The position numbers were made by a program, and so were the translations under genes. A stretch of 64,000 nt of DNA from Escherichia coli (lineage in GTDB: Bacteria > Pseudomonadota > Gammaproteobacteria > Enterobacterales > Enterobacteriaceae): assembly GCF_013122565.1 (NCBI RefSeq), contig NZ_CP053258.1; one strand, written 5' to 3'. Positions 34,948 to 35,594 of the stretch are shown one piece after another; the first letter of the stretch is position 1, and each line of letters opens with the position of its first letter. A model generated the notes under the pieces. It made no database searches, was not told where the DNA came from, and worked only from the letters and a program-made list of their open reading frames with translations.

Positions 34948-35594
34948 ATTTAAAATCACCCAAGGGAAAAGATATTCTACTGAACTCCCCGTGCTTTATT
35001 ATTATAAAAGCACAACGCATTTATACTCATATTAATTAACGAAACACTGATACAGTTTGATTTATTCTTCGCTCCAACTCATTAGCTTAAATTCTTTACC
35101 CACAACTGTAGCATATATAATATTATCAAAAGTCAAAGCTGGGACTATCAAATTTCGCTCATTTTCAAAAATACAATGTAATTTTAGCAATCATCTTAAT
35201 CGCAGGATCTCTTATTGCATGTGAAAAATTCTGTAATGATTAGACAATAACCACGTTCATTTATCACGCGTTATAAATGTAAAACTGGCTTCTTGCAGAT
35301 GCTCTTAACCTCTACAGGAGGATTTATCCCGCCATTTCAGAGCTATCATATTTACCTTAAATGATCATTTCAGCCATATAACACGCTCAACCTCACAAAT
35401 GGTTTACACTGTCTATTGTTTGGGTAATTTAAGTAAGTCAGCTACGACCAACCTTGAGTGGATAGCCAGCAATGGACTCAAACCTAATCAGGTGTTCAGA
35501 TTGTTTCAGAATTGTATTAAAAACAATGTATTAAATAATCTGATAGCGTTTGGTCGTAGTGTGACGCAGACAGCAAGCTAATAAGGAAATGATT

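What the first reader, a model, noticed from the sequence alone, without database searches (positions are those of the whole stretch)
35440..35560. Nested inverted repeats just upstream of ybjP
cagctacgaccaac (35440-35453) pairs with gtttggtcgtag (35545-35557) across ~90 nt, and inside this ttgagtgga...tggactcaa forms a second imperfect hairpin. The structure lies 40-150 nt upstream of the ybjP start at the edge of the AT-rich island. It could be a 5' leader structure, a small RNA, or the terminal inverted repeats of a small decayed element marking the island boundary.
Basis: seen in the sequence. Interest (0 to 1): 0.3.

Follow-up and report, generated by a model that had tools for sequence, protein, structure and literature searches.

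The report
Structured ybjP leader in imported DNA
The nested inverted repeats are real and lie in the mapped 5' untranslated leader of the ybjP lipoprotein mRNA in E. coli strains whose ybjP promoter region was replaced by foreign DNA, but nothing shows that the fold is a selected regulatory element, a small RNA or a transposon end.

Summary
The repeats exist, 1-3 nt from the stated coordinates: CTACGACCAA 35442-35451 pairs with TTGGTCGTAG 35550-35559 and extends to 15 bp (35437-35565), enclosing two or three hairpins. As RNA the 131 nt fold at -41.7 kcal/mol (z -5.1). That is the local optimum but only the top ~1% of the 64 kb, and a 10-bp inverted repeat alone is expected by chance.

Cappable-seq of O157:H7 EDL933 puts the ybjP transcription starts 177, 179 and 208 nt upstream of the ATG (window 35418, 35416, 35387), against 56 nt in K-12. 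The whole structure is therefore inside the ybjP 5' UTR. It is predicted to be an autonomous domain that leaves the ribosome-binding site untouched.

The element is single-copy. It occurs in 1128 of 5426 complete E. coli genomes, always at this locus, and in none of 80 other species, plasmids or phages. The perfect outer stem is private to this window; every other carrier has a mismatch at 35448. No compensatory changes exist.

The imported tract runs from 33028 to about 35866, inside ybjP, so the structure does not mark the boundary. There is no terminator, target-site duplication or Rfam match.

Verdict: a lineage-specific structured leader, most likely a passive by-product. Low-to-moderate interest.

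The parts
33028..35866 (.). Imported (foreign) tract. It comprises the AT-rich island, the ybjP promoter and leader, and the first ~270 nt of ybjP.
   Evidence: The left junction is at 33027/33028 against island-free genomes. Window 35567-35866 is only ~77% identical to K-12, after which identity rises to 97-100%. GC is 0.28-0.37 over 33000-35500. K-12 and other Escherichia species have a 125-bp ybjQ-ybjP spacer instead.
33177..34959 (-). Frameshifted pentapeptide-repeat pseudogene, present as two ORFs of 239 and 366 aa.
   Evidence: ORFs. Pfam Pentapeptide_4 and Pentapeptide match. RefSeq annotates it as 'frameshifted' or 'partial'. Homologues of the N-terminal part occur only in E. coli and Shigella, and all the source-named ones are labelled partial or hypothetical. 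No TSS was assigned to it in EDL933.
35375..35387 (+). Distal ybjP promoter: -10-like CATATAAC, with TSS at 35387 (-208).
   Evidence: EDL933 TSS 1033043 was detected in exp salt, stat M9 and stat salt. It maps to window 35387. The -10 assignment is my reading of the sequence.
35405..35418 (+). Main ybjP promoter: -10 TACACT (35405-35410), with TSSs at 35416 and 35418 (-179 and -177).
   Evidence: EDL933 TSSs 1033012 and 1033014 were detected in 6 of 8 conditions. Positions 35391-35447 are identical between the two island alleles, which differ by ~20% elsewhere. The -10 assignment is my reading of the sequence. The promoter scan found no consensus sigma-70 site here.
35437..35451 (+). 5' arm of the outer (closing) stem.
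   Evidence: Position 35448 is C only in this window.
35453..35493 (+). Left inner hairpin region. In the window it forms two hairpins (35454-35481 and 35482-35493). In the common allele it forms one long hairpin.
   Evidence: This is the most variable part, with 9 differences in 47 nt between the common and N96-type alleles.
35496..35543 (+). Right inner hairpin: 11-bp stem TCAGATTGTTT/AAATAATCTGA plus an apical ATTGT/ACAAT stem.
   Evidence: All 16 pairs are invariant in 10 distinct variants. Only 35517 and 35518, in the apical loop, vary.
35550..35565 (+). 3' arm of the outer stem. It lies in sequence that aligns with the ancestral ybjP 5' UTR.
   Evidence: A local alignment matches window GATAGCGTT-TGGTCGTAG... 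to ancestral GATATCATTATTATCGTAG... at the same distance from the ATG.
35583..35597 (+). ybjP Shine-Dalgarno (AAGGAA) and start codon (ATG at 35595), outside the structure.
   Evidence: Mean unpaired probability is 0.45-0.47 with the domain present and 0.42 without it.
35399..35581 (+). 60-codon ORF overlapping the structure (Z1096, formerly EDL933_RS04965). Probably not a gene.
   Evidence: Its ATG lies upstream of the main TSS. An AAG>TAG stop at 35435 occurs in 8 of 57 sequences, and the syn:nonsyn ratio is 10:14. It is absent from the Sakai Ribo-seq small-gene tables.

Best explanation
The nested inverted repeats are the core of a ~129-nt self-complementary stretch (35437-35565). This stretch lies inside the 5' untranslated leader of ybjP mRNA in the E. 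coli and Shigella lineages that carry a ~2.8-kb imported tract at the ybjQ-ybjP locus.

Shown: the tract replaced the ancestral 125-bp spacer, including the sigma-S promoter whose TSS is 56 nt upstream of ybjP in K-12.

Shown for EDL933: transcription now starts inside the imported DNA at -177/-179 and -208.

Inferred from thermodynamic prediction: the extra ~125-150 nt of leader folds into an autonomous three-way junction (four-way in this window). That domain is closed by the 15-bp outer stem, makes essentially no pairs with the rest of the mRNA, and leaves the Shine-Dalgarno sequence and AUG as accessible as in a leader without it.

Inferred: the fold is most likely a passive property of the imported leader. 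At most it compacts or insulates the leader or modestly stabilises the mRNA. It is not a switch, a small RNA or a mobile-element terminus.
For: Location and transcription:
- EDL933 Cappable-seq TSSs for ybjP are at 1033012, 1033014 and 1033043, which is 177, 179 and 208 nt from the ATG. The RegulonDB value for K-12 is 56 (PMC10469882 Table S5). The K-12 TSS is cited from primer extension in PMC2760140.
- These TSSs map to window 35418, 35416 and 35387, and the flanking sequence is identical there apart from one base 45 nt upstream of the distal start.
- No TSS was listed at the K-12-equivalent position in any of 8 conditions.
- YbjP protein is nevertheless abundant in the O157 proteome (PMC3210124).

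Fold:
- z is -5.1 for the window and -3.3 to -5.3 for four other alleles.
- The domain persists when the full leader plus the start of the coding sequence is folded.
- About 44 pairs are expected inside the domain and about 0 cross its border. Outer-stem pair probability is 0.84-0.95. SD-to-AUG accessibility is unchanged.

Conservation:
- Between the two island alleles the leader region is 90-94% identical, against 70-85% for the rest of the island.
- The promoter/TSS block (35391-35447) and the right hairpin are almost invariant.

Origin:
- K-12 and 4 other Escherichia lineages have the 125-bp spacer.
- The imported tract extends into ybjP.
Against: - The TSSs were assigned to ybjP by position (same strand, within 250 nt), not by showing that the transcript continues into ybjP.
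- There is no compensatory base change in 10 distinct variants.
- Substitutions are only weakly enriched in unpaired columns: 10 of 39 unpaired against 10 of 92 paired, Fisher p = 0.06.
- The outer stem carries a G.G mismatch in nearly all carriers.
- The left hairpin and the 3' arm diverge at a near-neutral rate between alleles, 17-19%.
- Folds this stable occur in about 1% of windows.
- The in vivo structure is untested.
- A passive role is a default, not a demonstrated fact.
Confidence: 0.6

Rival explanations
1. The domain is a functional cis-regulatory RNA. In this reading a protein (for example CsrA, ProQ or Hfq), an sRNA, temperature or RNase access acts on the three-way junction. This would tune the stability or translation of ybjP mRNA specifically in island-bearing lineages.
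For: - The domain is transcribed in the leader.
- It folds well in all alleles, z -3.3 to -5.3.
- The right hairpin is invariant, and the leader is more conserved than the rest of the island.
- Four one-sided changes keep RNA pairs as G.U or improve them, including G.U to A-U at 35441.
- Variation leans towards unpaired columns (p = 0.06).
Against: - There is no covariation.
- The ribosome-binding site is not touched by the fold.
- There is no Rfam match and no terminator or attenuator.
- The outer stem is mismatched in almost all carriers, and the left hairpin evolves near-neutrally.
- The EHEC Hfq and ProQ supplements that are held as text have no entry for ybjP.
Confidence: 0.17
2. The pairing has no role as RNA. 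In this reading the palindromic blocks matter as DNA. One option is an operator for a transcription factor or nucleoid protein acting on the ybjP promoters. The other is the vestige of the ancestral -10/TSS region (AATAAT at 35534-35539).
For: - Right-hairpin DNA (35495-35544) is nearly invariant between alleles that differ by ~9% across the domain.
- It overlaps the position that aligns with the ancestral promoter/TSS.
- The region is AT-rich like H-NS-bound foreign DNA (the H-NS link is general knowledge, not tested here).
Against: - The block lies 80-125 nt downstream of the mapped TSSs, an unusual place for an operator.
- No TSS was detected at the vestigial promoter.
- No known binding motif was identified.
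- The invariance could simply reflect mosaic recombination.
Confidence: 0.08
3. The region encodes a small protein or upstream ORF (Z1096, 60 aa, 35399-35581) whose translation ends 8-14 nt before the ybjP start. In this reading the repeats are incidental to coding.
For: - The ORF is open in most variants and has been annotated as Z1096 and EDL933_RS04965.
- The synonymous:nonsynonymous ratio is 10:14, against 5:19 in the other two frames (p = 0.04, uncorrected).
- The -208 TSS lies 12 nt upstream of its ATG.
Against: - The main TSS (-177/-179) is downstream of its ATG.
- There is no Shine-Dalgarno sequence before the ATG.
- A premature TAG at codon 13 occurs in 8 of 57 sequences.
- It is not among the translated small ORFs in Sakai Ribo-seq.
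- It is absent from the current RefSeq annotation.
- It has no Pfam match.
Confidence: 0.05
4. The outer repeats are the terminal inverted repeats of a decayed miniature mobile element (MITE- or ERIC-like) that marks the end of the island.
For: - The element is ~130 nt long with 10-15-bp terminal complementarity, near a junction of foreign DNA.
- The ybjQ-ybjP spacer is a recurrent insertion site. Citrobacter carries insertions there flanked by the direct repeat TCATTGAAAGG.
Against: - There is one copy per genome in 1128 genomes and no other copy by blastn.
- There is nothing in plasmids, phages or 80 other species.
- No target-site duplication flanks 35437 and 35565.
- The arms are mismatched in all other carriers.
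- The 3' arm aligns with ancestral leader sequence.
- The ERIC core is absent from the whole window.
- The foreign tract continues 300 nt further.
Confidence: 0.03
5. The region is an independent small RNA gene transcribed from the -177 start and ending before ybjP.
For: - A TSS lies 19-21 nt upstream of a stable structure.
- The assignment of that TSS to ybjP is by proximity only.
Against: - There is no intrinsic terminator or U-run after the outer stem on either strand.
- There is no other TSS for ybjP, although YbjP is abundant.
- There is no Rfam match.
- It is not in the EHEC Hfq-bound sRNA lists that are held.
Confidence: 0.04

Closest known systems
Long structured 5' UTRs of enterobacterial envelope-protein mRNAs (for example the ompA leader, whose stem-loops stabilise the mRNA). 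Comparison from general knowledge.
   Same: It is a leader of more than 130 nt upstream of an outer-membrane (lipo)protein gene. It contains stable stem-loops that do not cover the ribosome-binding site.
   Different: In ompA the stabilising hairpin sits at the very 5' end. Here about 20 unpaired nt precede the domain. No stability data exist. The leader is lineage-specific imported DNA, not a conserved feature.
Promoter and leader replacement by horizontally acquired DNA (allelic exchange of regulatory regions between E. coli lineages)
   Same: An ancestral promoter (sigma-S, TSS -56) is replaced by foreign DNA that supplies new start sites at -177 and -208.
   Different: The exchange also replaced the first ~90 codons of the gene and brought in a pentapeptide-repeat pseudogene. 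The donor is unknown.
ERIC/IRU elements (about 127-bp imperfect palindromes in transcribed intergenic regions of enterobacteria)
   Same: The size (~130 nt), the imperfect-palindrome architecture and the location in a transcribed intergenic region next to a gene start all match.
   Different: It is single-copy. The ERIC core sequences are absent. It is not found in other species.
Rfam cis-regulatory leaders and riboswitches
   Same: It is a multi-helix junction in a 5' UTR.
   Different: There is no match to any of 4227 Rfam models even at E = 10. There is no expression platform: no terminator, and the SD is not sequestered. There is no covariation.

Membership tests
Transcribed 5' leader of ybjP | A transcription start upstream of the element on the same strand as the gene | tested here: met
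   EDL933 Cappable-seq TSSs lie at -177, -179 and -208, which is window 35418, 35416 and 35387. The element starts at 35437.
Transcribed 5' leader of ybjP | The transcript continues through the element into the coding sequence | not testable with these tools
   This is inferred only. There is no terminator between 35437 and 35595. No nearer TSS was detected. YbjP is abundant in O157. The TSS was assigned to the gene by proximity.
Functional (selected) RNA secondary structure | Compensatory base changes that maintain pairs | tested here: not met
   No pair out of 46 (or 44) shows a change on both sides in 10 distinct variants. The covariation score is no better than shuffles. The sequences are at least 90% identical, so the test has little power.
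Functional (selected) RNA secondary structure | Folding energy beyond the composition-matched expectation, in all alleles | tested here: met
   z is -5.1 for the window and -4.3, -3.3, -5.3 and -4.7 for other alleles. However, about 1% of all 130-nt windows in the 64 kb do as well.
Translational riboregulator (SD-sequestering leader) | The structure occludes the Shine-Dalgarno sequence or the start codon, or competes with them | tested here: not met
   SD-to-AUG unpaired probability is 0.45-0.47 with the domain and 0.42 without it. About 0 pairs cross the domain border.
Transcription attenuator / Rho-independent sRNA | A GC-rich hairpin followed by a U-run | tested here: not met
   No terminator-like site was found on either strand in 34900-35700. 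The sequence after the outer stem is GCAGACAGCAAGC.
MITE / terminal inverted repeats of a mobile element | Multiple copies in genomes | tested here: not met
   There is exactly one place per genome in 1128 E. coli genomes. There is none in true plasmids or phages and none in 80 other species' loci.
MITE / terminal inverted repeats of a mobile element | A target-site duplication flanking the inverted repeats | tested here: not met
   The flanks are TAAGTAA before 35437 and GCAGACA after 35565, with no direct repeat. The repeat finder reports none.
ERIC/IRU | The conserved core sequence (ERIC1R and ERIC2 primer sites, recalled from Versalovic et al. 1991) | tested here: not met
   There are 0 matches with up to 3 mismatches anywhere in the window.
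Any curated RNA family (Rfam 15) | A covariance-model match | tested here: not met
   There is no match overlapping 35380-35600 even at E up to 10. ARAGORN finds no tRNA or tmRNA.
Small protein gene / uORF (Z1096) | An intact ORF under purifying selection, with evidence of translation | tested here: inconclusive
   The syn:nonsyn ratio is 10:14 (p = 0.04), but a nonsense allele occurs in 8 of 57 sequences. The start codon lies upstream of the main TSS. The ORF is absent from the Sakai Ribo-seq lists.

The most novel reading that the evidence does not exclude
The imported leader domain is a genuine riboregulatory module. In this reading it is a protein- or sRNA-binding three-way junction, with the invariant right hairpin as the recognition element. 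It would give EHEC O157, Shigella and other carriers (about 21% of complete E. coli genomes) a different post-transcriptional control of YbjP. YbjP is the recently recognised lipoprotein partner of the TolC efflux duct. Efflux-pump assembly would then be regulated differently in these lineages than in K-12.
Probability: 0.12. Interest if true: 0.5.

Novelty: new member of a known kind. Interest (0 to 1): 0.27.

Why it matters
YbjP was shown in 2025-2026 to bind TolC in the AcrAB-TolC efflux pump (10.1101/2025.03.19.644130; 10.1101/2025.10.29.685381). All regulatory knowledge of ybjP comes from K-12, where it has a sigma-S promoter with a TSS at -56.

About one fifth of complete E. coli genomes carry a different allele. 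These include O157:H7 and O145, and the same leader ORF is annotated in Shigella sonnei, S. flexneri and S. dysenteriae. In this allele the promoter, the leader and the first ~90 codons are foreign, and the leader is three times longer and strongly structured.

This is a concrete, easily testable case of regulatory rewiring of a core envelope gene by horizontal transfer. If the structure turns out to be inert, the locus remains a tidy example of an insertion hotspot sitting exactly on a promoter.

Tried and rejected
1. Rfam at E up to 10, ARAGORN and the terminator scan found nothing at the element.

2. The consensus sigma-70 scan found no site at the mapped TSSs. The -10 elements named here are my own reading.

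3. HS-02 was first taken as the 'island-free' reference. Its 316-bp T-rich spacer turned out to be unique to that one genome. K-12 has the ancestral 125-bp spacer. My first boundary estimate (35566/35567) was therefore only the end of non-alignable sequence, not the end of the foreign tract.

4. I looked for more divergent homologues to test covariation.
   - 80 species loci retrieved through YbjP: none has the element.
   - Plasmids and phages: none.
   - A metagenome scan gave 50 loci, all close E. coli-type variants.
   - Protein searches with the pentapeptide N-terminus and the foreign half of YbjP found no donor lineage.

5. The similarity of the island's right end to the ends of the Citrobacter insertions is a 15-17-nt motif only. 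It is not significant against shuffles.

6. Literature checks found nothing at this locus. I checked the Sakai Ribo-seq small genes, the Hfq CLIP sRNAs, the ProQ targets and the O-island review. No supplements are held for the Sakai dRNA-seq paper.

7. No island-level terminal inverted repeats were found.

Full report
**1. The observation**

The window region is ybjS-amiD-ybjQ (minus strand), then an AT-rich tract, then ybjP-artPIQM-artJ (plus strand). The perfect core is CTACGACCAA (35442-35451) against TTGGTCGTAG (35550-35559).

RNA folding of 35435-35565 extends this core to a 15-bp closing stem (35437-35451 with 35550-35565). The stem encloses three hairpins:
- 35454-35481;
- 35482-35493;
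- 35496-35543.

The fold gives -41.7 kcal/mol, z = -5.1 against 200 dinucleotide shuffles. The minus strand folds less well, z = -4.1.

A 10-bp inverted repeat with a loop of 120 nt or less is not remarkable in itself. The window holds 36 such pairs, and block shuffles give 8.4 +/- 4.1. The nested fold is the best between 33000 and 37000. Over the whole 64 kb, though, 1.3% of 130-nt strand-windows reach z < -4 and 0.7% reach z < -5. The structure is real and above the composition expectation, but not extraordinary.

**2. Distribution and variation**

The 151-nt region occurs exactly once per genome. It is found in 1128 of 5426 complete E. coli genomes, always upstream of ybjP, including O157:H7, O145, O55:H7, IAI39 and SMS-3-5. 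The overlapping 60-codon ORF is also annotated in Shigella sonnei, S. flexneri and S. dysenteriae.

It is absent from:
- real plasmids and phages;
- the ybjP loci of 80 other species;
- any Rfam family.

I collected 57 sequences: complete genomes plus 50 metagenome contigs. They give 17 distinct variants, 10 of them distinct within the 131-nt domain.

Three alleles are private to this window: 35342G, 35448C and 35462A. In every other sequence 35448 is G (a G.G mismatch in the middle of the outer stem) or T (a U.G pair, in the rare N96-type allele).

The other alleles still fold as well (-35 to -44 kcal/mol, z -3.3 to -5.3), but as a three-way junction with one long left hairpin.

There is no compensatory change in any pair. 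Variable columns are 10 of 39 unpaired against 10 of 92 paired (Fisher p = 0.06).

Conservation between the common and N96-type alleles is patchy:
- 35391-35447 is identical;
- the right hairpin block 35495-35544 has one difference;
- the left hairpin has 9 differences in 47 nt;
- the 3' junction and arm have 6 differences in 35 nt, which is near the ~20% divergence of the rest of the island.

**3. What the surrounding DNA is**

K-12 MG1655, E. albertii and three other Escherichia lineages have a 125-bp ybjQ-ybjP spacer. Most other Enterobacteriaceae have about 100-130 bp.

In the window this spacer is interrupted after ...GATATGCCAT (33027). What follows is about 2.5 kb of 28-37% GC DNA. It carries a frameshifted pentapeptide-repeat pseudogene on the minus strand. 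The N-terminal part of that gene has relatives only in E. coli and Shigella, and all the source-named ones are labelled partial or hypothetical.

I first placed the right boundary at 35566/35567 by comparison with strain HS-02. That strain's T-rich spacer turned out to be unique among the 5426 genomes. Comparison with K-12 shows that the foreign tract continues into ybjP. Window 35567-35866 is only ~77% identical to K-12, which is more diverged than E. albertii is from K-12. Identity then jumps to 97-100%.

The imported tract is therefore about 33028-35866, and the structure does not mark its edge.

The last ~55 nt before the ATG align at ~70% identity, at the same spacing, with the ancestral leader. 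Window GATAGCGTT-TGGTCGTAG matches ancestral GATATCATTATTATCGTAG. The 3' arm of the outer stem is therefore probably the donor's version of the ybjP leader. The 5' arm has no ancestral counterpart. Neither the element nor the island has target-site duplications or matching termini.

**4. Transcription: the decisive outside evidence**

In K-12 the sigma-S-dependent ybjP promoter starts 56/55 nt upstream of the ATG. This comes from primer extension by Lacour and Landini 2004, as tabulated in PMC2760140. It is also cited in 10.1101/2025.03.19.644130. That start falls at the GG of GGATATC, just downstream of CTATTAT in the ancestral spacer (my reading).

Cappable-seq of EDL933 (PMC10469882, Table S5) lists three TSSs for ybjP (EDL933_RS04960):
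- 1033012, seen in exp LB, exp M9, exp salt and stat salt;
- 1033014, seen in stat LB and stat acid;
- 1033043, seen in exp salt, stat M9 and stat salt.

The authors' own comparison reads 'ybjP 56 | 177, 179, 208 | difference 121'.

With the EDL933 CDS at 1032320-1032835, and flanking sequence that matches the window apart from one base 45 nt upstream of the distal start, these starts are window 35418, 35416 and 35387. A TACACT hexamer (35405-35410) sits 7-8 nt upstream of the main start. CATATAAC (35375-35382) precedes the distal start. These promoter assignments are my inference.

No TSS is listed at the K-12-equivalent site, and none for the pentapeptide gene. YbjP (Z1095) is an abundant lipoprotein in the O157 proteome (PMC3210124), so these starts must serve ybjP.

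Caveat: the paper assigns TSSs to genes by position (within 250 nt upstream), not by transcript continuity. No terminator lies in between.

**5. How it most likely works**

Folding the full leader from either TSS to +60 keeps the domain intact. Partition-function analysis gives:
- about 44 expected pairs inside 35437-35565 and about 0 across its border;
- outer-stem pair probability 0.95 in the window and 0.84 in O157;
- mean unpaired probability of the SD-to-AUG stretch of 0.45-0.47 with the domain, 0.42 with the leader truncated at 35567, and 0.45 for a K-12-length leader.

The structure therefore packs nearly all the extra imported leader into a closed domain and is neutral for ribosome access in silico. 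With no terminator, no SD sequestration and no covariation, I judge the fold to be a passive property of the imported leader. It may insulate or modestly stabilise the mRNA. Confidence is 0.6.

A real riboregulatory role remains possible, at about 0.17. The evidence in its favour is the invariance of the right hairpin and the higher conservation of the leader relative to the island.

**6. Rivals**

- **sRNA:** there is no terminator, no other ybjP TSS and no entry in the held Hfq data.
- **MITE or terminal inverted repeats:** it is single-copy with no target-site duplication. The arms are mismatched elsewhere and the ERIC core is absent.
- **uORF Z1096 (35399-35581):** it has been annotated in the past and shows a marginal synonymous excess of 10:14, p = 0.04. 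Against this, its ATG is upstream of the main TSS, it lacks an SD and a nonsense allele is common. It is also not in the Sakai Ribo-seq lists.
- **DNA-level operator in the right hairpin:** not excluded, but there is no positive evidence.

**7. Comparison with known systems, and novelty**

It works like other long structured leaders of envelope-protein mRNAs. It also resembles other cases where horizontally acquired DNA replaces a promoter. It is not a member of any curated RNA family, ERIC or MITE class.

The TSS shift is already in a published supplementary table, but the leader structure and the extent of the imported tract are, as far as the searched literature shows, undescribed.

It is a new instance of a known kind of thing. 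Interest is low-to-moderate. It is raised slightly because YbjP is now known to be the TolC partner lipoprotein.

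Noticed in passing
L002 (E. coli HS-02, NZ_CP172818.1) 2680-2995: A 316-bp, almost pure A/T, T-rich tract lies between ybjQ and ybjP. It has the same left junction (GATATGCCAT) as the island allele and keeps an ancestral-type proximal promoter. Only this one genome among 5426 has it. It could be a real insertion or an assembly artefact.
   Followed up: partly
L012 876-4000, L013 843-4000, L014 1774-4000 (Citrobacter spp.); also L019, L026: Insertions of 1.1-3.1 kb sit at the same point of the ybjQ-ybjP spacer. In L012-L014 they are flanked by the direct repeat (A)TCATTGAAAGG. The L012 cargo includes an AppA-like histidine acid phosphatase ORF (recognised by its RHGVRAPT motif, from my own knowledge and not scanned against Pfam) and a CspA-like cold-shock ORF (likewise recognised by eye). 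The spacer is a recurrent insertion hotspot, right at the ancestral sigma-S -10 of ybjP.
   Followed up: partly
window 35595-35866: The first ~90 codons of ybjP are foreign, ~77% nucleotide identity to K-12. This gives 13 amino-acid differences in the signal peptide and N-terminal half of YbjP, the TolC partner lipoprotein. Identity returns to 97-100% downstream.
   Followed up: partly
window 33028-35300 versus L004 (E. coli N96): A second island allele occurs in 18 of 5426 genomes. It is only 70-85% identical across the pentapeptide pseudogene but 99-100% identical in ybjP. This implies further recombination within the imported tract.
   Followed up: partly
window 36140-36176 (-): A weak Rfam match to CRISPR-DR53 (25 bits, E = 0.16, below gathering score) lies in the ybjP-artP intergenic region. 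It is probably just a hairpin or terminator.
   Followed up: no
window 1531-1711 (+), 11386-11476 (+), 11926-11971, 32626 (-), 39196, 43561-43606, 49546-49816: Other 130-nt windows have fold z-scores of -5 to -12, stronger than the finding. The window at 43561 reaches z -7.6 on the plus strand and -12.2 on the minus strand. I did not examine them.
   Followed up: no
window 34910-34923 and 35585-35598: GGAAATGAT(G/T)ATGC, the ybjP ribosome-binding site and start, is repeated 675 nt upstream inside the start of the pentapeptide pseudogene region, on the opposite coding strand. It is probably chance.
   Followed up: no
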